This document shows, one piece after another, positions 5,888 through 14,972 of a DNA stretch of 64,000 nucleotides (position 1 is the first letter of the stretch; each line of letters opens with the position of its first letter). Where the stretch lies: assembly GCA_965261715.1 (NCBI GenBank), contig OZ253471.1, forward strand, positions 560,763 through 624,762, written 5' to 3'. The notes under the pieces are model-generated. The model was not told where the DNA came from and did not search any database. It was given only the letters and a program-made list of their open reading frames with translations. Both the position numbers and the translations under genes were made by a program. Origin of the DNA: Dehalococcoidia bacterium. GTDB taxonomy: Bacteria > Chloroflexota > Dehalococcoidia > Bin125.

Positions 5888-6754
5888 GTGCAAGCGGTGA
5901 AATATGCCCGCGCCGGCAGCGTGGAAGAGGCAGTTAGCCTCCTGCAAAACGGAGGCGAAACCGCACGTCCGTTGGCAGGCGGAACCGATGTCATCGTGCA
6001 GGCGCGCGAGCGCACGCGGGACATCAACCTGTTCGTCGACATCAAGCACATACCCGAGCTGATGAATATTGAGTACTCAGCCGATTCCGGTCTCACCATC
6101 GGCGCGGGGACTCCGTGTTACCAGCTCTACGGCGACTCCACCATTTCGGATCTTTATCCGGCGCTGGTCGACTCGGCCTCGCTAATTGGTGGCACGGCAA
6201 TTCAGGGCCGTGCTTCTCTGGGCGGCAACCTGTGTAACTCCTCACCGGCAGCCGACGGGATTCCGTCGCTGATCGTGCTCGAGGCTCAGGTGGAAATTGC
6301 CGGGCCAAACGGTCGGCGGACCGTCGCGGTTGAGGACTTCTGTACCGCTCCCGGCCGCAACGTGCTGGAGGCCGGCGAAATCGTCGTCAAGCTCCACTTC
6401 CCGGTACCGGCCGAGGGCTCGGGCGCGCGATTCCTGCGCTTCATTCCTCGCAACGAGATGGACATTGCCGTCGCCAACGCCGCGACGCAGGTTCGCTTCG
6501 ACGGTGACGGGACTGTGACCTGGGCCCGCGTCTCACTCGGCGCGATTGCACCGACGCCATTGCTGGTCTCCGAGGCCGCCGCCGCGCTGGTCGGTCAGCC
6601 GCTCAGCGATGAGACGATCGCGGCTGCTGCCGCGGCGTCGAGCGCTGCGGCCAAACCAATCACCGACATGCGCGGCAGCATTCGCCAGCGGGTCCATCTC
6701 GCCGGCGTGCTCACCGAGCGCACCATCCGACAGGCCGCCGAGCGCGCCGCCTGA
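5888..6754 (+). CDS. Molybdenum hydroxylase FAD-binding (medium, CoxM/XdhB-like) subunit
   Basis: 288 aa with the FAD-binding PCMH-type fold motif 'AGGTDVIV'. It sits first in an M-S-L gene order. GTG start preceded by AGGAGG. Confidence 0.85.
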   Translation: MQAVKYARAGSVEEAVSLLQNGGETARPLAGGTDVIVQARERTRDINLFVDIKHIPELMNIEYSADSGLTIGAGTPCYQLYGDSTISDLYPALVDSASLIGGTAIQGRASLGGNLCNSSPAADGIPSLIVLEAQVEIAGPNGRRTVAVEDFCTAPGRNVLEAGEIVVKLHFPVPAEGSGARFLRFIPRNEMDIAVANAATQVRFDGDGTVTWARVSLGAIAPTPLLVSEAAAALVGQPLSDETIAAAAAASSAAAKPITDMRGSIRQRVHLAGVLTERTIRQAAERAA

Positions 6755-6792
6755 GCCATCAGATTCGATCGATTAACGGAGGAACATCTTCC

Positions 6793-7275
6793 ATGCCCAG
6801 CACCGAACACATCGTCGTGAGCTGCACCATCAACGGCGAGCAGCAAGTCTTTCTGGCCAACGAGCGCGACTCCCTGCTCGAGGCGCTGCGTGACCGGATC
6901 GGACTGACCGGCGCCAAAGAGGGTTGCAACAACGGCAACTGCGGCGCTTGCTGCGTCAACATGGACGGCCGGATCGTCAATAGCTGCCTCGTGATGGCAG
7001 CCGAATGCGAAGGCGCTGAGATCCGCACCGTCGAGGGACTGGCCACTGGCGACCAACTGTCGCCGTTGCAGAACGCCTTCCTTGAGCAGGCCGCGCTGCA
7101 GTGCGGCATCTGCACGCCGGGATTCCTCGTCGCTGCTGAATCGCTGCTCGAACAGAACTCCGACCCGACGGAACACGAGATCCGCTACTGGCTGGCCGGC
7201 AACCTCTGTCGCTGCACCGGCTACGACAAGATCATCAAGGCCGTCCAGCAGGCCGCTGGCCAGAGCGTCGTCTAA
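6793..7275 (+). CDS. Molybdenum hydroxylase [2Fe-2S] small (CoxS-like) subunit
   Basis: 160 aa carrying two cysteine clusters (CNNGNCGACCV and CGICTPGF...CRCTGY) typical of the CoxS/XdhC iron-sulfur subunit. Confidence 0.9.
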   Translation: MPSTEHIVVSCTINGEQQVFLANERDSLLEALRDRIGLTGAKEGCNNGNCGACCVNMDGRIVNSCLVMAAECEGAEIRTVEGLATGDQLSPLQNAFLEQAALQCGICTPGFLVAAESLLEQNSDPTEHEIRYWLAGNLCRCTGYDKIIKAVQQAAGQSVV

Positions 7276-7353
7276 CACCGACGGCTACACGCCGTCCGAT
7301 ATCGACGGTCATAGGCCGTCACACGTTGAGCACCACAAGAGAGGACTCCTCGC

Positions 7354-9654
7354 ATGGTCACCGCACAGTCGCAACCACAGTCCAGGGAAACCGAGCAGTA
7401 CAACGTCATCGGGACCCGACCGATCCGGCACGACGGTGTCGACAAGGTCACCGGCGCCGCGCAGTACGGCGCGGATCTGAGCCTGCCCGGCATGCTCGCC
7501 GGCCGCGTCCTGCGCAGCCCGCATGCCCACGCACGAATCGTCAGCATTGATACGTCCAAGGCCGAGGCTCTGGAGGGCGTGTTGGCAGTGATCACCAACG
7601 CCGACTTCCCCCGCGCCTCCGACGAGGTGATCGACACCGGCGAAGGCAGCGCTCAGCTCAACTGGGTGCTGGACAACGTCATCGCCTCGACCAAGGTGCT
7701 CTACAAGGGCCACGCGGTAGCAGCCGTCGCCGCGACCGACCACCACATCGCCGAGGACGCGCTCGAACTGATCGACGTCGAGTACGAGTTGCTCACGCCG
7801 GTCCTCGACGTCCGCGACGCCATGGTCGACGGTTCGCCGCTGCTCCACGACAGCCTGCACACGGGCGAAATGGACGGCTCCAAAAGCGACAACGCCAGCA
7901 ACACCGCGTCGCACCTACAGTTCGCCAAGGGTGACCTGGATGCAGGCTTCGCAGATGCCGACGTGGTCATCGAGCGCGAGTTCGAGACCTCGATGGCGCA
8001 CCAGGGCTACATCGAGCCACACAACGGCACCGCCTACTACCGCGCCGACGGCACGCTCGATATCTGGACCTCGACCCAGGGCGCATTCGTCGTCCGCGAC
8101 TCCGTTGCGCCGCTGCTCCAGCTTTCACCGTCGCGGGTGAAGGTGACGCCGATGGAGATCGGCGGCGGCTTCGGCGGCAAGATTCCCGTCTACCTCGAGC
8201 CACTGGCGGCGCTGCTCTCGCAGAAGACCGGCCGCCCGGTCCAGCTGACGATGAACCGCGAGGAAGTGCTGCTCGCCACAGGCCCGACCTCGGGCACCTA
8301 CATGCGGGTGCGCATGGGCGCGAAGCGCGACGGCACGCTGACTGCCGCCGACGTTCACCTGGCATTCGAGGCCGGCGCCTACCCTGGCTCGCCGGTCGGC
8401 GCCGGCGCGATGTGCGCCCTCGCCCCCTACGACATTCCCAGCCAGCGGATCGACGGCTACGACGTGGTCGTGAACAAGCCGAAGACCGCCGCCTACCGCG
8501 CACCCGGTGCGCCACAATCCGAGTTCGCCACCGAATCGGTGCTCAACGAGCTCGCCGAAGAGTTGGGCATCGACCCGCTTGAGATTCGGTTGCAGAACGC
8601 CTGCGAAGAGGGCGCTCAGCGTGCCGACGGCTTCACCTACGGCGTGATCGGCAATGTCGAGTGCATGACCGCTGCCCAGGAGTCGCCGCACTGGCAGTCG
8701 GAGCTCGAAGGCCCCAACCGCGGACGCGGCGTGGCCCACGGCTTCTGGTTCAACATCGGCTTCGAGTCCTCCGCTTACGCGCAGGTCAACGACGACGGCA
8801 CCGTTCCTCTGGTGCTCGGCTCGACCGACATCGGCGGCACACGAGCCTCGCTCGCGATGCAACTGGCTGAAACCCTCGGCATTTCGGCTGAGGAAGTGCG
8901 ACCGCACGTGGTCGACACCAACTCCGTCGGCTACACGCAGGTCACCGGCGGCAGCCGCACGACCTTCGCCGGTGGCTGGGCCGCCTACGAGACCGCCATG
9001 GACATCCGTCGCCAGATGGAAGAGCGCGCCGCCGTGATCTGGGAGTGCGACGCTGCGGACATCACCTACGGCGACGACGCGATCGTCCGCGGACCGGCCG
9101 ACGAGGATGGCAACGACCGCCAGTTCACCTTCAAGGAGCTCGCTGGCCAGCTCGCCTCGACCGGTGGCCGCATCGTTGGCCGTGCGGACGTCAACAAGAC
9201 CTCCAGCGGTCCCGCCTTCGCGACGCACATCGTCGATGTCGAAGTTGATCCCGAAACAGGCAAGGTGGATGTCCTTCGTTACACCGCGGTCCAGGACGCC
9301 GGCACCGCGATTCACCCCGCATACGTCGAGGGACAGATGCAGGGCGGCGTCGCGCAGGGCGTCGGCATGGCGCTGAACGAGGAGTACTACTACGACGACT
9401 CCGGCGATCTCAAGAACGCCAGCCTGCTTGACTACCGCATGCCGACCGCGCTCGACCTGCCGATGATCGAGCCGATCATCGTCGAGGTCCCGAACCCCGG
9501 TCATCCCTACGGTGTGCGCGGCGTCGGCGAAGTCCCGATCATTCCGCCGGCCCCGGCCATGCGCGCCGCCATCGCCAACGCGATCGGCGTGCACATGTCA
9601 GCGCTGCCGATGTCGCCGCGCGCCATCCTCGAAGCGACCGTGCTCGAGGAGTAA
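7354..9654 (+). CDS. Xanthine dehydrogenase-family molybdopterin-binding large (CoxL-like) subunit
   Basis: 766 aa with aldehyde oxidase/xanthine dehydrogenase a/b hammerhead and MoCo-binding regions. It has AYRAPG rather than the form-I CODH VAYRCSFR loop, so substrate is not assigned. Confidence 0.9.
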   Translation: MVTAQSQPQSRETEQYNVIGTRPIRHDGVDKVTGAAQYGADLSLPGMLAGRVLRSPHAHARIVSIDTSKAEALEGVLAVITNADFPRASDEVIDTGEGSAQLNWVLDNVIASTKVLYKGHAVAAVAATDHHIAEDALELIDVEYELLTPVLDVRDAMVDGSPLLHDSLHTGEMDGSKSDNASNTASHLQFAKGDLDAGFADADVVIEREFETSMAHQGYIEPHNGTAYYRADGTLDIWTSTQGAFVVRDSVAPLLQLSPSRVKVTPMEIGGGFGGKIPVYLEPLAALLSQKTGRPVQLTMNREEVLLATGPTSGTYMRVRMGAKRDGTLTAADVHLAFEAGAYPGSPVGAGAMCALAPYDIPSQRIDGYDVVVNKPKTAAYRAPGAPQSEFATESVLNELAEELGIDPLEIRLQNACEEGAQRADGFTYGVIGNVECMTAAQESPHWQSELEGPNRGRGVAHGFWFNIGFESSAYAQVNDDGTVPLVLGSTDIGGTRASLAMQLAETLGISAEEVRPHVVDTNSVGYTQVTGGSRTTFAGGWAAYETAMDIRRQMEERAAVIWECDAADITYGDDAIVRGPADEDGNDRQFTFKELAGQLASTGGRIVGRADVNKTSSGPAFATHIVDVEVDPETGKVDVLRYTAVQDAGTAIHPAYVEGQMQGGVAQGVGMALNEEYYYDDSGDLKNASLLDYRMPTALDLPMIEPIIVEVPNPGHPYGVRGVGEVPIIPPAPAMRAAIANAIGVHMSALPMSPRAILEATVLEE

Positions 9655-9673
9655 TACCAGACGTAGGCGGCAC

Positions 9674-9937
9674 GTGGTCACCGTCCTCATCCCTCAGCCG
9701 CTCAGGACCCTCACCAACGGTGAGGCTGTCCTGACGGCTGAGGGTCACAACATCCGCGCAGTCATCCGAGACCTCGCCCCGAAGTACCCCAAACTCGCCG
9801 AACGCCTGGTCAACGAAGGCAAAATCGGACGTGGCATCTCACTAGCCATCAACGGAGACGTAGTCTCAACGGGTCTAATCACCAAGGTCCCTGAGGGAGC
9901 CGAGATCGCAATCGTCCCGCAAATCAGCGGCGGCTAG
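9674..9937 (+). CDS. MoaD/ThiS-family sulfur-carrier protein (C-terminal Gly-Gly)
   Basis: GTG at 9674 begins about 87 aa ending in '...IVPQISGG*'. Small beta-grasp-like sequence lying 19 nt downstream of the Mo-enzyme large subunit. Confidence 0.65.
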   Translation: MVTVLIPQPLRTLTNGEAVLTAEGHNIRAVIRDLAPKYPKLAERLVNEGKIGRGISLAINGDVVSTGLITKVPEGAEIAIVPQISGG

Positions 9938-10569
9938 AGGAGGCGGGGCTGGTAGCCACGATCCCTCAAAGAGGCAATGTGAAGTCCAAAGACCAGAGAC
10001 GACCATGGGTCCATGCGTTTGCGCAACGAATGGAGTTCTGGTTCGCGGCATAGCAGTCCTGCATACTTGGAATTCGCCGAGAACTCTTCGGCTGCCGTGG
10101 GACGCACTGCGCCTGCAACTACAACTTCATGGACGATACCGATGTGTCGCGACGATTGGGGGGTGGCGCCATCGACGACCACGCCGATCGGTTCAACGCA
10201 TTTCGGCGGCTCGGTCGCCAACTCCTCAGAGATTTCGCGCAGAAGCGTGGAACGGACGAGATAGGAGAATCCTGGATTCCCAGGTTCCCAATCGATGTGT
10301 CCGCCAACCACCATGCTGATCCTCGACTGCAAGTCGGAGCGGCCCTCTCGGATTCGGCGGAAGACGTAGTACCCGCCGTTCATGCCGCGCACGAGTGCAC
10401 ACGGGATCGGCTGAACGAATTCGTCAGAAGATTCGGCCTCGTGTCTGGGCAGCCAGATCATGCCCGCGTCAGCTGCCTCAATGAGCCATTCAGCGGATGC
10501 CCAAGGAGTGAAGGCAGGCCGGTCCGTCAGCCAGAGACGGGGTAGACAGAGAACTTGCTGCTGAGCCAT
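9934..10569 (-). CDS. Nudix-like hydrolase (degenerate Nudix box)
   Basis: 211 aa. 'GGHIDWEPGNPGF...LLREISEELA' resembles the G-x5-E-x7-REUxEExGU Nudix signature but with non-canonical spacing. Its stop overlaps the convergent MoaD-like stop (CTAG). Confidence 0.45.
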   Translation of the reverse strand: MAQQQVLCLPRLWLTDRPAFTPWASAEWLIEAADAGMIWLPRHEAESSDEFVQPIPCALVRGMNGGYYVFRRIREGRSDLQSRISMVVGGHIDWEPGNPGFSYLVRSTLLREISEELATEPPKCVEPIGVVVDGATPQSSRHIGIVHEVVVAGAVRPTAAEEFSANSKYAGLLCREPELHSLRKRMDPWSSLVFGLHIASLRDRGYQPRLL

Positions 10570-10577
10570 GGCAACGC

Positions 10578-11318
10578 CTAGCCTTCCTCAATCGGGCTGG
10601 TCTCGAAAATGTTGAGGATGGTGTCTACGACGCCAGTAGCGGTCGTCAACGGCGTTGTCTCCTGTGTGCTGCTCGTGTCGATTCTCGTGAAGCCACTGAA
10701 AGAACTAGAGAATCTGCGTTCGACCTCCGCATACGCTTCATTCAGCTGCGTCAGAAACGTCTCGTTCATCGCTTGGCCAGGTTCGTCAATGAGTTTGTCG
10801 CTGTTCTCTCGGATCATTGATGTTTGGGGATCGGTAGTGAACAGCAACACGGCATCGATTTTCTTGCGCCAATGCTCGATTTGCAGAAAGCTCTGCACCT
10901 GGTCGCGTTCCTGCTCTGTGATTGTGTTTCGGGTCGCGAGCAGTTCGAACCATGCGAGCGCATCGAACAATCCGCGGTCCAAGATTGCTAGCGCGTACTG
11001 GTCGGAGCCGTGAAGTCCCTCAAGAACGTGCATCAGCGCGTAGGAAGCAGACCACGTGTTGAAGGCCATGAGATCGTCCTTCAAGAAGTAAGGAGTTCTC
11101 CTGGAAGCGCCCTCTGCCGGAGCCAGCACCTTGATGTCGCAGCGGCGGAAGAAATGGCGAACGATCTCAATGCATGAACTCTTTCCGCTCTTCGGCGTTC
11201 CTGCAAACTCCACAAAGACAGGTTGGGTTCGAGGATGGGCTTTCAACTGGCTCGAGACAGCTTGGGCGCGTTCTACGAGCTCCACTTTGTCCGTCATCGA
11301 GTGCTCCGCCTCAGGCAA
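10578..11318 (-). CDS. P-loop NTPase, probable nucleoside/nucleotide kinase-like protein
   Basis: 246 aa with Walker A 'GTPKSGKSS'. A later 'ILDRGLFDALAWF' segment is reminiscent of the ERS/DR motifs of dNK-type kinases. Sits 9 nt upstream of the Nudix-like gene on the same strand. Confidence 0.55.
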   Translation of the reverse strand: MPEAEHSMTDKVELVERAQAVSSQLKAHPRTQPVFVEFAGTPKSGKSSCIEIVRHFFRRCDIKVLAPAEGASRRTPYFLKDDLMAFNTWSASYALMHVLEGLHGSDQYALAILDRGLFDALAWFELLATRNTITEQERDQVQSFLQIEHWRKKIDAVLLFTTDPQTSMIRENSDKLIDEPGQAMNETFLTQLNEAYAEVERRFSSSFSGFTRIDTSSTQETTPLTTATGVVDTILNIFETSPIEEG

Positions 11319-11375
11319 CTTGTGCTCTCAAGTCTACTAGCACAAGCGGTCTTATTGTTGCGTGCTTTGCCAATT

Positions 11376-12608
11376 TCATTTCGAATTACTGGTCAGCACC
11401 GCGATTGAGGCTGTGAATCCGTGGAGGTAGTTTTCTCCTCCGACTGGTCCGATTTCTCCGTTGCAGAAGAAGCCGGCGGTTGGCACGGGACCGAAGATAT
11501 CGGACAGCGCCGTCGCGTCGTGATCGGGCTCACCGAAGAGCCCTCGGCCGCGGCCGTTGCAGGAGCAGAGCAGCGCTCCCAGAACCTCTTCCTCGGGATT
11601 GAGCGCGTCGCGCAAGTCTGACAAGCGGGTTCGCAAGTCATCATCGGCGGCCTGGGCGTCACGGAACTGGAATTGGAAGGTCTGGCCGACTCTGGGGATC
11701 GCGTTAATCGCGACGGTCCCTGCCTCGCGGTCGGCGCCCATGACGTTTCGGATCAGGAAGTCGCCGCGTTCGTGCGATTCCTTGTACTCGTCCATGGCCA
11801 GACCGACGAGCAGGTTGCGGGCAGCTCGCTCGCGAGTGGATTCATCCAGCGCAGAGAGAGTTTCTTGCAGCACTTCCAGCGCCGGGCGCGAGCCTAGCGA
11901 TTTGACGGTGTTCGCCTCGCATTCGGTCACGATCCACGGCTGACCAAGCGGCTCCGCACCTTGCGCGACCACGGGGCGCACTGAGACGCCTCGGAGTCCC
12001 ATCATCGCCGCCCCGGCCATGAGCGCTTGGTCGTCGATGAATACCGCGCAACCCTGCTGTTGTCGATGGGACGACGCCATCCCGCCGAGCAGCACGATCT
12101 CCGGTCGCAGCTTCTGCAGGTGCGAAACGAGCTGGTCGGTCATGATTGTGAACGGATTGCTGAACAGCAACCAGACTTCGGGGCCGTCCTCGATCGGAGC
12201 AAAGAGGTCGTCGGGCATGGTCTCGGGATCAATGGCAATCGGCGTCAGTTCTGCTCCGGGCAGCGACAGTCCCAACACGGCGATCGCCGAGCCCTCTTCC
12301 GCCTCCAGCGACGACCCGATCACGCTCTGACCCGACGCGCCGATCAGGTGGCGAGCGCCTGTCTCTTGCTTCAGTCGCGCGATAATTTCCGCGTAATGGC
12401 CGGTGTGGCGCGAGTCGACGAACACCAACAACAGGTCCGGAGTGGTCGTCAGATCCATGCCGCGCAAGGCGGAGTCGCAGGCTGCTTCCCACTCTGCTTC
12501 GAAGGCGACTGCGGCCGATGCTCCTGCGGTCGACATCTGCACTGTGGCCTGTCCAGGACCGCTCGAGCGACGAATCGTCTCGTCGGATGTTGACGGTTGG
12601 TTAGACAT
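11376..12608 (-). CDS. FIST-domain signal-transduction protein
   Basis: 410 aa whose overall pattern is FIST_N / FIST_C-like (...LLLVFVD..., ...FFCNGEIGPV...). This is a sensory-domain-only protein. Confidence 0.65.
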   Translation of the reverse strand: MSNQPSTSDETIRRSSGPGQATVQMSTAGASAAVAFEAEWEAACDSALRGMDLTTTPDLLLVFVDSRHTGHYAEIIARLKQETGARHLIGASGQSVIGSSLEAEEGSAIAVLGLSLPGAELTPIAIDPETMPDDLFAPIEDGPEVWLLFSNPFTIMTDQLVSHLQKLRPEIVLLGGMASSHRQQQGCAVFIDDQALMAGAAMMGLRGVSVRPVVAQGAEPLGQPWIVTECEANTVKSLGSRPALEVLQETLSALDESTRERAARNLLVGLAMDEYKESHERGDFLIRNVMGADREAGTVAINAIPRVGQTFQFQFRDAQAADDDLRTRLSDLRDALNPEEEVLGALLCSCNGRGRGLFGEPDHDATALSDIFGPVPTAGFFCNGEIGPVGGENYLHGFTASIAVLTSNSK

Positions 12609-12664
12609 TTGAACGTTCCGTTCGCTGAGGGTGCAGCTAGCAATCCAAAGGGTAACCTGCGGGT

Positions 12665-13672
12665 ATGACTACCATGACCGATACTTCCGAACCAACCGAC
12701 AAATCAGATTTATCCGACTTGCCTGATCAACCGCTGCCCCCCGGCGACGATCTTGATGAAATAGCCAAAGCCGCGCGAGCCCTCGCGCAGCGCGGCGGCG
12801 ACATCCTGATGGACCGCTTCCACGCCACAATCGAGATCTCATTCAAGGGCCAGAACGCTCACGACCCCGTGACTGAGGTTGACCACGCGATCGAAGACAT
12901 GATCCGCGACGAGGTGCATCGCACGTTCCCTGAGCATGGAGTGCTCGGTGAAGAGCGAGACAACGGCGGTCCACTTGACGCCGAAATTGTGTGGGTGGTT
13001 GATCCGCTCGACGGCACAACCAACTTCATCAATGGCATCGGCCTGTTTGCATGTTCGATCGGGATTCTTCACAACGGGACGCCGATCGCGGGAGCGCTTT
13101 GGCTACCGACCAATCGGTTCCTGACTCCTGGCGTGTACCACTCCAAAACAGGATACGGTCTGATGTTCAATGGCGAACTGGTGGACTGCGGCGCGCCGGC
13201 GCTCCAGGCAGCCTCGCGATTGAGCACTGTGCCTGCCGGAACCGGCGGCGTGACTGGTCCTGCGGGGCGACGCTTCGGCATCGCCCGAACATTCGGCAGC
13301 ACAGCGACCGAGTTGGCGCTGGCGGCCGAGGGCTCAGTGCAGATGGCGTTGTTCGATGGCGCGCGGATCTGGGATGTCGCCGGTGGTGTTTCCTTATGCG
13401 TTGCTGCAGGAAGGGCCGTCTACACCAAGACGAGACGCAGCGAAGAACGTTGGCGACCGTTCACGCGGTTCTGCGACAGAATCGACGGTCCGCCCCACAT
13501 GGAGCAGCTACGCAAGTGGAGCGATCCGCTGGTTGCGGGCGACCCGTCGGTGCTGCCGGAATCGGCGACGGCGCTGAAGAAGGAGCAGAGCGTCGCGGCG
13601 ACCGCCAAGCGGGCGGCCGTCAAGAGCGTGAAGCGAGCCTTCCCGAATCTGCCGCTGCCGTCGTATCCCTAG
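12665..13672 (+). CDS. Inositol monophosphatase-family protein
   Basis: 335 aa with the metal-binding motifs 'WVVDPLDGTTNFINGIGLFA' and 'WDVAGG' characteristic of the IMPase/SuhB family. Confidence 0.8.
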   Translation: MTTMTDTSEPTDKSDLSDLPDQPLPPGDDLDEIAKAARALAQRGGDILMDRFHATIEISFKGQNAHDPVTEVDHAIEDMIRDEVHRTFPEHGVLGEERDNGGPLDAEIVWVVDPLDGTTNFINGIGLFACSIGILHNGTPIAGALWLPTNRFLTPGVYHSKTGYGLMFNGELVDCGAPALQAASRLSTVPAGTGGVTGPAGRRFGIARTFGSTATELALAAEGSVQMALFDGARIWDVAGGVSLCVAAGRAVYTKTRRSEERWRPFTRFCDRIDGPPHMEQLRKWSDPLVAGDPSVLPESATALKKEQSVAATAKRAAVKSVKRAFPNLPLPSYP

Positions 13673-13699
13673 CGCCGCGTTTCCGCTCAGAGAGCTCTT

Positions 13700-14040
13700 T
13701 GCGTAAGTCCCCTTCTCCCCCCTTGCGGGGGAGATGCCGAAGGCAGAGGGGGGGACTCCCCATCTCAATGCCTGTCTGGTCGCTGGCCGAGCCCCCCCTC
13801 TCTGTCACTCCGTGACAACTCCCCCCGCAAGGAGACCTTTGAATAAGTCCCCTTCGCCCCCCTTGCGGGGGAGATGCCGAAGGCAGAGGGGGGGCTCCCC
13901 ATCTCAAGGCCTATCTGGTCGCTGGCGGCGGACCCCCCCTGTCACTCCGTGACATCTCCCCCCGCAAGGGGGGGAGAGGGGAATCATGAGTTTTTCGAAG
14001 GTCTCCGCAAGGGGGGAGAGGGGATAGGCGAGTTTTGCAA
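13700..14040. repeat. GC-rich palindromic tandem repeat (140-bp unit, about 2.4 copies)
   Basis: The unit 'ccccttgcgggggagatgccgaaggcagaggggggg(a/c)tccccatctcaa...gtcactccgtgaca(a/t)ctccccccgcaagg...' is seen directly. Exact 140-bp spacing (13721 vs 13861). Contains perfect hairpins with GCAA/TTGC loops. Lies between convergent gene ends. Confidence 0.8.
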
Positions 14041-14048
14041 AGGCCTCT

Positions 14049-14972
14049 TCAGGCGTGGACGACCGGTAGGACCTCATCGAACAGGCGCTGGGACTGATAC
14101 ATGATCGCGTCGTCGCCGCGAGCTAGCGGCCGCATGATGAACTTGCTGACCCCAGCTTCGCGATATTCGTTGACTCTGCTCAGAATGTCCTCGGCGCTGC
14201 CGACAGCCAGGTAGGTGTCCGGGTTGATCTCGGGCAGTCGAGCCTTGATTCCGGCGATCTGCGCCTGCACATCGTGGTCGTCCCACGAGCCGAAGTGGTA
14301 GCCGAAGCCGGCGCCGAAGTGGTCTGGCTCATAGTCGGTGCGGCCCGCCTCAGCGAGCGCGGCCTTGATCTGGTCGATCACGGGCTTGACTTCGTGCGCC
14401 GACTGAATCCCCGCGACCCAACCGGTTCCGATCCGCGCGGTCCGGCGGATCGCCGCTTTGCTCGCGCCGCCGATCCAGAGCGGCAGCGGGTCCTGCACCG
14501 GTCGCGGCGAGATCGAGGCATTGTCGTATTGGAAATGCTCGCCGTGATAGGTGAACGATTCCTCGTTCCACAGTCCGTTGATGACGTCCAGCATCTCGTC
14601 GGCGATCGGGCCGCGACCGCGCATCGTACGGTTGGTCACTTTCCATTCCGGGGCGAACGCGCCACCCACGCCGAACGCCGGCAGCATGCGACCGTTGGAG
14701 AGAAAGTCAATCGTCGCGCACTGCTTGGCCAGCACCAGCGGGTCGCGGAAGCCGACGACGACGACGTTCATGCCAAACTTCAGCTTCTCGGTCCGCGCGG
14801 CCATCGCGGCCATGAAGGTCATCGACTCGAGCATCGGCTGGGTCGAGATCAGGCGGTCGGTTTGCCAGATCGAATCGACATTGTGCTCTTCGCAGAGGTC
14901 GATCCAGCGCCACATGGTGGCCACGTCGGAGAAGGGGAAGTTGGCCAGTCCCATTCCGATCCGGTCGCTCAT
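14049..14972 (-). CDS. LLM-class (luciferase-like) flavin-dependent oxidoreductase, probably F420-dependent
   Basis: 307 aa. The TIM-barrel LLM pattern is present (GMGLANFPF..., GRMLPAFGVGG, KFIMRP). Confidence 0.8.
   Translation of the reverse strand: MSDRIGMGLANFPFSDVATMWRWIDLCEEHNVDSIWQTDRLISTQPMLESMTFMAAMAARTEKLKFGMNVVVVGFRDPLVLAKQCATIDFLSNGRMLPAFGVGGAFAPEWKVTNRTMRGRGPIADEMLDVINGLWNEESFTYHGEHFQYDNASISPRPVQDPLPLWIGGASKAAIRRTARIGTGWVAGIQSAHEVKPVIDQIKAALAEAGRTDYEPDHFGAGFGYHFGSWDDHDVQAQIAGIKARLPEINPDTYLAVGSAEDILSRVNEYREAGVSKFIMRPLARGDDAIMYQSQRLFDEVLPVVHA

What the first reader, a model, noticed from the sequence alone, without database searches (positions are those of the whole stretch)
9934..12608. 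FIST sensor / P-loop kinase / Nudix-like hydrolase three-gene run of unknown function
Three same-strand genes with 57-nt and 9-nt gaps. First, a stand-alone FIST-domain protein (a ligand-sensing domain with no output domain). Second, a 246-aa P-loop protein (Walker A GTPKSGKSS, dNK-like 'DRGLFD' segment) that I cannot place in a characterised kinase family. Third, a 211-aa protein with a recognisable but irregular Nudix box.

A kinase plus a nucleotide pyrophosphohydrolase under a sensor domain looks like a small nucleotide-modifying or signalling module. Possibilities include NAD/nucleoside salvage (NadR-like kinase plus Nudix) or a nucleotide-based stress or defence function. The exact combination is not one I recognise as described.

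The Nudix stop overlaps the convergent MoaD-like stop (CTAG).
Basis: partly seen in the sequence, partly recalled or inferred. Interest (0 to 1): 0.55.

Follow-up and report, generated by a model that had tools for sequence, protein, structure and literature searches.

The report
Split nucleotide kinase–YmaB-type Nudix enzyme
Two of the three genes form a conserved pair, fused into one protein in other phyla, that joins an uncharacterised deoxynucleoside-kinase-like enzyme to a Nudix hydrolase of the YmaB/TM1382 family and probably manages deoxynucleotide pools; the FIST "sensor" gene is only a local neighbour.

Summary
The three minus-strand genes exist as described: FIST 11376-12608, P-loop 10578-11318 and Nudix-like 9934-10569. 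Only the last two form a unit.

- **Pairing.** In 41 of 42 Chloroflexota/Dehalococcoidia genomes that carry the kinase, the Nudix gene lies directly downstream.
- **Fusion.** In most of the 27 loci from other phyla, the two are one ~450-aa protein. So are 77 of the 150 best family representatives.
- **FIST.** It is adjacent in only 4 of 42 loci, all close relatives.
- **Kinase.** It matches no Pfam, NCBIfam or PADLOC model. A confident model and profile searches place it nearest deoxynucleoside and thymidylate kinases.
- **Nudix protein.** It is a full-length homologue of Bacillus YmaB, the fourth gene of the ribonucleotide reductase operon nrdI-nrdE-nrdF-ymaB. It is also homologous to Thermotoga TM1382 and to phage proteins in replication and thymidylate modules.

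Best reading: a split bifunctional enzyme acting on deoxynucleotides, combining dNTP pyrophosphohydrolysis with (deoxy)nucleoside or nucleotide phosphorylation. The substrate is inferred, not shown.

Rivals are NAD/nicotinamide-riboside salvage and an AvcD-like anti-phage nucleotide-depletion system. One fused clade always carries a 4-TM partner gene, which favours the second. The pairing appears undescribed.

The parts
10578..11318 (-). P-loop kinase of an unmodelled family, dNK/TMK-like. It is 246 aa from the TTG at 11318; the likely true start is ATG 11297 (239 aa). Residues invariant across the family: E37, G40xPKxGK46, E69, F86-N87-x-W89, I112-LDRGLFDA-120, W123, R170-E171, G181, M184.
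   Evidence: ORF. No Pfam, NCBIfam or PADLOC hit. 519 homologues. AF2 model with pLDDT 87.9. The Foldseek top 50 are all dNK/TMK-type kinases. In profile searches, the near-full-length PDB matches are almost all dNKs. Invariant residues come from the split plus fused alignment.
9934..10569 (-). Nudix-fold protein of the YmaB/TM1382 family (phrog_8902), 211 aa. The catalytic R111-E112-x-x-E115-E116 is kept. An 8-residue insertion sits inside the Nudix box.
   Evidence: ORF. Profile versus PDB 3e57, E=8e-7. AF2 pLDDT 90.7 and Foldseek to 3e57, E=8e-10, TM 0.72/0.83. phrog_8902, E=1.8e-15. hhalign against the YmaB/phage family: 99.2%, E=7e-20 over 186 columns. The family HMM hits the nrdIEF-linked YmaB orthologue at E=3.5e-20.
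10570..10577 (-). 8-nt spacer between the kinase stop and the Nudix start. A GAGGAAGG sits in the kinase 3' end, consistent with translational coupling.
   Evidence: Sequence read. The same tight spacing recurs in 41 related loci.
11319..11375 (-). Intergenic region upstream of the kinase. It holds GACCGCTTGTGC (11351-11340), a degenerate copy of a GTAC/GAAC-N4-GTTC element conserved at this position in other lineages, followed by a TAGACT -10-like hexamer. This is the likely own promoter/operator of the pair.
   Evidence: Upstream comparison of 41 loci. No consensus sigma-70 promoter or terminator was found by the simple scan. No Rfam match.
11376..12608 (-). Stand-alone FIST_N+FIST_C protein. 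It is an adjacent, possibly co-transcribed neighbour in this lineage, but NOT part of the conserved module.
   Evidence: Pfam. Adjacent to the pair in only 4 of 42 loci.

Best explanation
The conserved unit is the two-gene pair, not the triplet. It is the split form of a bifunctional enzyme that most other lineages encode as one ~450-aa polypeptide, with the kinase at the N terminus and the Nudix domain at the C terminus.

**Inferred chemistry.** The Nudix half belongs to the YmaB/TM1382 family and most likely hydrolyses (deoxy)nucleoside triphosphates to monophosphates plus pyrophosphate. The kinase half has a dNK/TMK-like fold and an intact ATP site, DR motif and LID Arg-Glu. It most likely uses ATP to phosphorylate a deoxynucleoside or a dNMP.

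**Inferred role.** Working on the same nucleotide species, the two activities form an opposed or bracketing couple. This would resemble dUTPase/dCTPase plus dNMP kinase around thymidylate or modified-nucleotide synthesis, or the kinase/nucleotidase substrate cycles that set dNTP levels. The couple would control the size, balance or cleanliness of a deoxynucleotide pool.

**Shown here:** gene pairing and fusion, fold assignments, family membership of the Nudix half, and retention of catalytic motifs.

**Inferred only:** the substrates, the direction of flux and the physiological role.

FIST is a lineage-specific neighbour.
For: **Pairing and fusion**
- The Nudix gene lies directly downstream of the kinase in 41 of 42 Chloroflexota loci.
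- Both domains sit in one ORF in most of the 27 loci from Verrucomicrobiota, Acidobacteriota, Proteobacteria, Myxococcota and others.
- Of the 150 best family representatives, 77 are fusions and 44 have stand-alone length.

**Kinase**
- The model is confident.
- The top 50 PDB matches are all deoxynucleoside or thymidylate kinases plus AbmG. Viral structure matches are the same kinds.
- The near-full-length profile matches in PDB are almost all dNKs. ILDRGLFDA aligns with the dNK ERS/DR motif, and R170-E171 aligns with the LID.

**Nudix**
- Homology to the YmaB orthologue that follows nrdI-nrdE-nrdF is full-length.
- Phage relatives sit beside DNA polymerase, primase, helicase, dUTPase, thioredoxin and guanylate kinase.
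- In Pseudomonas phage phiK7B1 the order is RNR-beta, thymidylate synthase, DHFR, YmaB-like gene, then a P-loop 'thymidylate kinase' whose start overlaps the preceding stop.
- PMC5960316 reports preliminary dNTP pyrophosphohydrolase activity for YmaB.
- REUxEE is invariant in the Dehalococcoidia family.
Against: - No substrate has been shown for either family. TM1382 is listed as 'undetermined', and the YmaB activity is only preliminary.
- Kinase similarity to dNK/TMK is remote: 11-18% identity, TM 0.55-0.62, profile E about 1e-3. P-loop kinases with other substrates share this fold.
- 16 of 22 fused proteins give weak AAA_28 (NadR-type) hits.
- No RNR, thymidylate or other nucleotide gene is linked to the pair in any cellular locus.
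- A kinase plus a pyrophosphatase acting on one nucleotide would be futile unless regulated.
- The family is rare and patchy: 69 loci in 185,579 species genomes. That fits an accessory role better than core housekeeping.
- In Myxococcota-type fusions the Nudix box is degenerate.
Confidence: 0.5

Rival explanations
1. Anti-phage or conflict system that works by nucleotide depletion. It would be analogous to DcdV/AvcD, where a P-loop kinase domain is fused to a deoxycytidylate deaminase. Here the kinase-like domain would gate or feed a Nudix dNTP pyrophosphatase that starves replication on infection. In one clade a small 4-TM protein would be a membrane effector.
For: - The DcdV/AvcD precedent: both the kinase and the deaminase domain are required, dC nucleotides are depleted, and phage is blocked.
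- Distribution is rare and patchy across phyla.
- In 5 of 5 members of the proteobacterial-type clade (L044, L059, L065, L066 and IMG/VR contig L084), a conserved ~165-aa 4-TM protein lies immediately upstream.
- In Methylobacter the two-gene cassette sits between gnd and zwf-pgl, like an insertion.
- One instance is on a contig classed as viral.
Against: - No PADLOC model hits the split or the fused proteins.
- Flanks are metabolic genes, not defence islands.
- In Verrucomicrobiota the gene lies inside the nuo operon.
- Dehalococcoidia members have no TM partner. They are strongly conserved (55-73% identity for the kinase) and partly syntenic.
- Only 3 hits in 2.9 million viral contigs.
Confidence: 0.2
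2. NAD/nicotinamide-riboside salvage. The kinase would be a NadR-type ribosylnicotinamide kinase, and the Nudix domain an NAD(H)/ADP-ribose pyrophosphatase, as in NadM-Nudix.
For: - AAA_28 hits in 16 of 22 fused relatives (best 1.3e-7) and NUDIX hits in 15 of 22.
- NadR-like viral structures appear among the lower-ranked matches.
- A weak NCBIfam hit to NMNAT/Nudix.
- Insertion between nuoG and nuoH in Verrucomicrobiota.
- NadR and NadM domain logic (PMC9503650).
Against: - The window kinase itself has no AAA_28 hit.
- dNK/TMK matches outrank NadR in both structure libraries.
- No NMNAT domain or NAD gene is linked.
- The Nudix half is a YmaB-family member, and that family's contexts are RNR and phage DNA-replication or thymidylate modules.
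Confidence: 0.12
3. One reading: a three-gene signalling module in which the FIST protein senses a ligand and controls the kinase and the Nudix enzyme.
For: Same strand, short gaps, and no predicted terminator between the genes in this genome and in three or four close relatives.
Against: - FIST is adjacent in only 4 of 42 loci and absent from 35.
- Fused forms never carry or neighbour FIST.
- A conserved operator-like element lies between FIST and the kinase.
Confidence: 0.04
4. Another cofactor or nucleic-acid function, for example CoA turnover (dephospho-CoA-kinase-like enzyme plus CoA pyrophosphatase) or RNA 5'-end processing (polynucleotide kinase plus decapping-type Nudix).
For: - A weak hit of one fused protein to CoA pyrophosphatase (E=0.0017).
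- The GxPxSGKS-type P-loop resembles PNK, KTI12 and APS-kinase loops.
Against: These matches cover only the P-loop or fall far below family thresholds. No CoaE or PNK structures appear among the top 50 matches.
Confidence: 0.06

Closest known systems
YmaB (Bacillus nrdI-nrdE-nrdF-ymaB operon), Thermotoga TM1382 (PDB 3E57) and phage family phrog_8902
   Same: Full-length homology of the 211-aa protein, including the N-terminal strand, the extended Nudix box with intact REUxEE and the C-terminal (D/E)xWS motif. Similar length, about 205-215 aa.
   Different: It is not linked to ribonucleotide reductase or replication genes. It is coupled, and elsewhere fused, to a P-loop kinase that Bacillus and most phages lack. 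About 24% identity to YmaB-type sequences.
Deoxynucleoside kinases and thymidylate kinases (Drosophila dNK 1J90, Mycoplasma dAK/dGK 2JAS/2JAQ, TMKs)
   Same: P-loop NMP-kinase-like fold, Walker A, a Glu after strand 2, a DR motif after strand 3 and an Arg-Glu in the LID. These are the best structural matches and almost the only near-full-length profile matches.
   Different: No Pfam dNK or TMK hit. Only 11-18% identity. It has an extra N-terminal helix, its own invariant motifs (FNxW, ILDRGLFDA, GxxMN) and a single LID arginine. The substrate is unknown.
DcdV/AvcD (P-loop kinase domain + deoxycytidylate deaminase; anti-phage dNTP depletion)
   Same: Architecture logic: an N-terminal nucleotide-kinase-like domain joined to a C-terminal domain that degrades deoxynucleotides.
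   Different: The C-terminal domain here is a Nudix hydrolase, not a deaminase. There is no detectable sequence match to defence models. No sRNA antitoxin was found and there is no defence-island context.
NadR (NMNAT + ribosylnicotinamide kinase) and NadM-Nudix
   Same: Bifunctional nucleotide enzymes that use an AAA_28-type kinase or a Nudix domain. Fused relatives give weak AAA_28 hits.
   Different: There is no adenylyltransferase domain. Kinase and Nudix are joined directly, and the Nudix belongs to a different subfamily.
Phage T4 dCTPase/dUTPase (gp56) with dNMP kinase (gp1), and the dUTPase-ThyA-TMK route (from established knowledge)
   Same: A dNTP pyrophosphatase and a dNMP kinase act at the two ends of a monophosphate-level conversion. 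A phage example of a YmaB-like gene next to a TMK-like gene was seen in phiK7B1.
   Different: The enzyme families differ, and no modifying enzyme is linked to the pair here.

Membership tests
Nudix hydrolase superfamily (PF00293) | Nudix alpha/beta/alpha fold | tested here: met
   AF2 pLDDT 90.7. 59 PDB Nudix-type matches at E<=1e-3.
Nudix hydrolase superfamily (PF00293) | Canonical Nudix box Gx5Ex7REUxEExGU, scoring above the Pfam threshold | tested here: inconclusive
   G89/G90...E95 and R111-E112-I-S-E115-E116 are present, but the spacing is 15 residues rather than 7. Pfam score is 17.7 against a 21.1 cut-off.
Nudix hydrolase superfamily (PF00293) | Pyrophosphohydrolase activity | not testable with these tools
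   Needs an enzyme assay.
YmaB / TM1382 family (phrog_8902) | Full-length profile homology to YmaB orthologues and phage members | tested here: met
   hhalign 99.2%, E=7e-20, 186 columns. HMM E=3.5e-20 to the nrdIEF-linked protein P0283. phrog_8902 at 1.8e-15.
YmaB / TM1382 family (phrog_8902) | Structural match to TM1382 (3E57), including the N-terminal extension | tested here: met
   Foldseek E=8e-10, TM 0.72/0.83, 194 columns.
YmaB / TM1382 family (phrog_8902) | Linkage to ribonucleotide reductase or DNA-replication genes | tested here: not met
   No such genes in the window flanks or in any of the 69 loci.
Deoxynucleoside kinase / thymidylate kinase families | P-loop NMP-kinase-like fold with Walker A and a DR/ERS motif after strand 3 | tested here: met
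Deoxynucleoside kinase / thymidylate kinase families | Match to the curated family models (Pfam dNK or Thymidylate_kin) | tested here: not met
   No Pfam or NCBIfam family at E<=1 for the window protein. Fused relatives hit only phrog_761 'thymidylate kinase', at E of about 2e-3.
Deoxynucleoside kinase / thymidylate kinase families | Arg-rich LID (RxxxRxRxEE) and phosphorylation of dN or dNMP | tested here: inconclusive
   Only R170-E171 are invariant in the LID. Activity is not testable here.
NadR-type ribosylnicotinamide kinase (AAA_28) | AAA_28 model match and an associated NMN adenylyltransferase | tested here: not met
   The window protein has no hit. Fused relatives are mostly sub-threshold. 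No NMNAT domain was found anywhere.
DcdV/AvcD-type defence enzyme | Kinase domain fused to a zinc deaminase; recognised by defence-system models | tested here: not met
   The C-terminal domain is Nudix. No PADLOC hit.
FIST-coupled signalling module | Conserved adjacency or fusion of FIST with the output genes | tested here: not met
   4 of 42 loci adjacent, 35 without FIST.

The most novel reading that the evidence does not exclude
The kinase-Nudix family is a previously unrecognised nucleotide-pool-manipulating system. It would be a switchable dNTP pyrophosphatase gated by a kinase-like domain, working like AvcD/DcdV or SAMHD1-type depletion. It would be used for phage defence or for damage-responsive control of replication. 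One clade carries a dedicated 4-TM effector. Several Dehalococcoidia lineages carry an SOS-box-like operator. The Dehalococcoidia pair would be a split variant of this system.
Probability: 0.2. Interest if true: 0.75.

Novelty: new variant of a known kind. Interest (0 to 1): 0.5.

Why it matters
YmaB has sat unexplained in the Bacillus ribonucleotide reductase operon for decades, and TM1382 is a structural-genomics orphan. A near-obligate kinase partner, fused in most lineages, is a Rosetta-stone clue. It says this Nudix family works on a substrate that also needs phosphorylating.

The kinase half defines a sizeable protein family (about 700-1000 clusters at 50% identity) that has no Pfam or NCBIfam model. 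It is therefore invisible to annotation.

If the couple controls dNTP pools, it is a new way for bacteria to regulate or deplete DNA precursors. That would be relevant to replication fidelity, the SOS response and phage defence. It would also affect the poorly understood marine and soil Dehalococcoidia (SAR202-type) lineages that carry it.

Tried and rejected
- **Family libraries.** Pfam, NCBIfam and PADLOC scans of the kinase returned nothing usable.
- **Sequence search of PDB.** A single-sequence search was uninformative. Hits to SRP GTPases, APS kinase and MobB cover only the P-loop region and were discarded.
- **Nmad2.** The sub-threshold hit occurs in 1 of 22 fused proteins and was treated as noise.
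- **Neighbourhood clustering.** No third conserved gene was found across all clades.
- **Unusual-length family members.** They showed no informative extra domains.
- **phiK7B1 'thymidylate kinase'.** It is not detectably a member of this kinase family.
- **RNA and signals.** No Rfam family, consensus promoter or minus-strand terminator in 9000-13500.
- **LexA motifs in other phyla.** A check for phylum-specific LexA motifs upstream of fused genes found nothing. It was technically weak, because some start offsets were mis-assigned.
- **Literature.** Searches for TM1382, COG4112, YmaB and kinase+Nudix combinations found no description of the pair.
- **Viral contigs.** Only 3 loci, so this is not a phage-borne family.
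Full report
**1. The observation**

The window is about 62% G+C. It is 98% identical to a Dehalococcoidia MAG chromosome, OZ253456.1 (L001).

- The 410-aa protein is FIST_N plus FIST_C and nothing else.
- The 246-aa protein has GTPKSGKSS and DRGLFD.
- The 211-aa protein has GGHIDWE followed by REISEEL. The catalytic half of the Nudix box is intact, but it is separated from the glycine-rich half by 15 residues instead of 7. It therefore scores just under the Pfam threshold.

Gaps are 57 nt and 8 nt. The Nudix stop and the convergent stop of a ThiS/MoaD/CysO-type carrier share CTAG.

Alignment with homologues and an upstream GAGG suggest that the kinase really starts at ATG 11297.

**2. What is conserved**

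The kinase has 519 database homologues and no family annotation. I scanned one genome per species (185,579 species) with patterns built on its invariant peptides. This found 69 loci.

In the 42 Chloroflexota loci:
- 41 have the Nudix gene immediately downstream on the same strand. The exception, L039, holds only a kinase fragment.
- FIST is adjacent in four loci, all among the closest relatives. It is 5 kb away or inverted in three more and absent from 35.

In the 27 loci from other phyla (Verrucomicrobiota, Acidobacteriota, Gemmatimonadota, Proteobacteria, Latescibacterota, Myxococcota), the kinase and Nudix domains lie in one ORF of about 450 aa in most cases.

An exhaustive profile search of 1.84 billion representative proteins found 688 family members at E<=1e-10. 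Of the best 150, 77 are kinase-Nudix fusions, 44 have stand-alone length, 17 are fragments and 12 are other.

All-against-all clustering of flanking ORFs found no other family shared by more than 11 of 69 loci.

The unit is therefore kinase plus Nudix. The Dehalococcoidia pair is a split version of a bifunctional protein.

**3. The kinase**

No Pfam, NCBIfam or PADLOC model matches it.

An AlphaFold model built on 20 homologues is confident (pLDDT 87.9).
- Its 50 best PDB matches are all deoxynucleoside kinases, thymidylate kinases or the nucleoside kinase AbmG (E about 2e-6, TM 0.55-0.62 on the query and up to 0.74 on the target).
- Its best viral matches are of the same kinds.

I built a profile from both split and fused members.
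- Near-full-length PDB matches are almost all dNKs: Drosophila dNK and Mycoplasma dAK/dGK, E about 1e-3.
- The one exception is the uncharacterised 1rz3 (query 2-139).
- Matches to SRP GTPases, APS kinase and MobB cover only the P-loop.
- In these alignments ILDRGLFDA falls on the dNK ERS/DR motif, and R170-E171 falls on the LID.

Several residues are invariant across phyla at about 30% overall identity:
- E37
- GxPKxGK
- E69
- F86-N87-x-W89
- the nine-residue ILDRGLFDA
- W123
- R170-E171
- G181 and M184

That argues for a conserved active enzyme with a defined small-molecule pocket.

It is dNK/TMK-like, but I cannot file it in either family.

**4. The Nudix protein**

The family profile hits one PDB entry, TM1382 (3E57), at E=8e-7. 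The confident model (pLDDT 90.7) superposes on it over 194 columns (TM 0.72/0.83). TM1382's function is listed as undetermined.

The protein matches phrog_8902 (E=1.8e-15). Phage members occur in SPbeta-like phages, SP-15, Listeria LIS04, Geobacillus GR1, Staphylococcus 6ec-like phages, and Pseudomonas and Ralstonia jumbo phages.

A Bacillus glycinifermentans member (P0283) lies at miaA-hfq-nrdI-nrdE-nrdF-[gene]-...-cwlC. From established knowledge, this is the position of ymaB in B. subtilis. The SP-15 record also annotates its copy as similar to BSU17400, which from my own knowledge is ymaB.

Profile-profile comparison of the Dehalococcoidia family with the YmaB/phage family gives 99.2% probability and E=7e-20 over 186 columns. 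The Dehalococcoidia HMM alone hits the YmaB orthologue at 3.5e-20.

The protein is thus a member of the YmaB family.

Phage copies lie among DNA polymerase, primase, helicases, dUTPase, thioredoxin and guanylate kinase. In phiK7B1 the copy lies between thymidylate synthase/DHFR and an overlapping P-loop 'thymidylate kinase'.

PMC5960316 reports preliminary dNTP pyrophosphohydrolase activity for YmaB. It proposes that YmaB makes dAMP from dATP for NrdE.

**5. Mechanism**

Both halves independently point to deoxynucleotides. The kinase does so by fold and motif resemblance to dNK/TMK. The Nudix does so by family membership and by the contexts of its relatives. Fusion implies that they act on the same or successive metabolites.

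My best reading has two parts:
- The Nudix domain converts (d)NTP to (d)NMP plus pyrophosphate.
- The kinase phosphorylates a deoxynucleoside or a dNMP.

This gives a regulated couple that sets or cleans a deoxynucleotide pool, or that brackets a conversion made at the monophosphate level. The logic would be that of dUTPase-ThyA-TMK, or of T4 dCTPase with dNMP kinase (established knowledge).

None of the chemistry is demonstrated. I put this at about 0.5.

**6. Rivals**

*(a) A conflict system of the DcdV/AvcD type.* In DcdV/AvcD a P-loop kinase domain and a dC deaminase are both needed to deplete deoxynucleotides and block phage.

Points in favour:
- The family is rare and patchy.
- In all five members of the proteobacterial-type clade, a conserved 4-TM protein of about 165 aa lies immediately upstream. 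It carries the motifs FYxRKLYK and RPxFA. One of the five is on an IMG/VR contig.
- In Methylobacter the cassette sits between gnd and zwf-pgl.

Points against:
- No PADLOC hits.
- Flanks are metabolic genes.
- Verrucomicrobiota carry the gene between nuoG and nuoH.
- Dehalococcoidia copies have no TM partner.
- Only three viral-contig hits.

*(b) NAD or nicotinamide-riboside salvage.* This rests on weak AAA_28 hits and on the nuo linkage. It is contradicted by the better dNK/TMK matches and by the YmaB affiliation.

*(c) The FIST-sensor triplet.* Neighbourhood analysis does not support it.

*(d) CoA or RNA-end functions.* These rest only on P-loop-level or far sub-threshold hits.

**7. Regulation lead**

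Ten of 41 Dehalococcoidia loci carry a match with at most one mismatch to GAAC-N4-GTTC within 200 nt upstream of the kinase. This is the Gram-positive-type LexA core, which from my own knowledge is also used by Dehalococcoides. The background rate is 6.2% of 200-nt windows.
- CGAGCAAATGTTCG is perfectly conserved in three loci whose flanks have diverged.
- GTACAC(A/T)TGTTCGCAT is shared by L007 and L010.
- The window has a degenerate copy, GACCGCTTGTGC, at 11351-11340.

The hits fall into only about six lineages, so this is a lead, not a result. It does show that the pair has its own upstream control region, separate from FIST.

**8. Novelty and verdict**

I found no description of this kinase family or of the kinase-YmaB pairing.

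It is built from known folds and follows a known logic, that of bifunctional nucleotide enzymes. I therefore rate it a new variant of a known kind, of moderate interest.

It gives the long-unexplained YmaB/TM1382 family a near-obligate partner and defines an unannotated kinase family. It could turn out to be a new dNTP-control or defence mechanism.

Noticed in passing
L044:5447-5962, L059:1546-2100, L065:5475-5951, L066:5402-5902, L084:5268-5960: A conserved ~165-aa four-TM protein (motifs FYxRKLYK and RPxFA, no Pfam hit) lies immediately upstream of the fused kinase-Nudix gene. This holds in all five members of the proteobacterial-type clade, one of them on an IMG/VR contig. It is absent from Dehalococcoidia and from the window.
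   Followed up: partly
L009, L013, L015 (~5966-5980); L007 5947; L010/L040 5925; L030 5914; L032 5899; window 11351-11340 (- strand): LexA/SOS-box-like palindromes (GAAC/GTAC-N4-GTTC; best is CGAGCAAATGTTCG) occur upstream of the kinase in 10 of 41 Dehalococcoidia loci, against a 6% background. The window copy is degenerate. A TAGCCT -10-like hexamer recurs 20-30 nt before the start codon.
   Followed up: partly
L053:2816-8388 (also L043, L062): In the Verrucomicrobiota locus L053, the fused kinase-Nudix gene sits inside the complex I operon, between nuoG and nuoH and after nuoF. L043 and L062 have flanking ORFs of the same sizes and positions, but I did not annotate them.
   Followed up: partly
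L056, L067, L069 (fused proteins, Nudix domain): In deltaproteobacterial and Myxococcota fusions the Nudix catalytic motif is degenerate (TRLKSDL, SRLQSDL, DRVRGDL instead of REUxEEL), while all kinase motifs are intact. The Nudix domain may be a non-catalytic ligand-binding domain there.
   Followed up: no
L078:4914-6178 (Pseudomonas phage phiK7B1): The gene order is RNR beta, thymidylate synthase, DHFR, a YmaB-like gene, then a P-loop 'putative thymidylate kinase' whose start overlaps the preceding stop. This is an independent case of a YmaB-type Nudix next to a small nucleotide-kinase-like protein. That kinase is not detectably in the window's kinase family.
   Followed up: yes
window 13683-14052: Intergenic cluster of G+C-rich repeats. 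There are two ~140-bp direct copies (85-92% identity) plus a 42-bp tandem pair, all containing CCCCCCTTGCGGGGG-type hairpins, some in inverted orientation. It looks like a REP/MITE-type element. Similar hairpins appear upstream of the pair in L013, L015 and L025.
   Followed up: partly
window 5888-9937: Upstream, on the plus strand, are three ORFs (5888-6754, 6793-7275, 7354-9654). From their translations they look like a xanthine-dehydrogenase/CO-dehydrogenase-type cluster: FAD-binding, 2Fe-2S and large molybdopterin subunits. No profile search was run on them. A ThiS/MoaD/CysO-type sulfur carrier ending in GG follows at 9674-9937 (PDB 3dwg_C, E=2.5e-10). This block is syntenic with the pair only in the closest relatives.
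   Followed up: partly
L039-L042, L063, L068: The kinase reading frame is broken into two or three pieces in several loci, mostly long-read MAG assemblies. These are either homopolymer assembly errors or pseudogenes.
   Followed up: no
window 11297-11318: The annotated TTG start of the kinase is probably not used. Homologues begin at the residue aligned with M8 (ATG 11297), which has a GAGG 6-14 nt upstream.
   Followed up: yes
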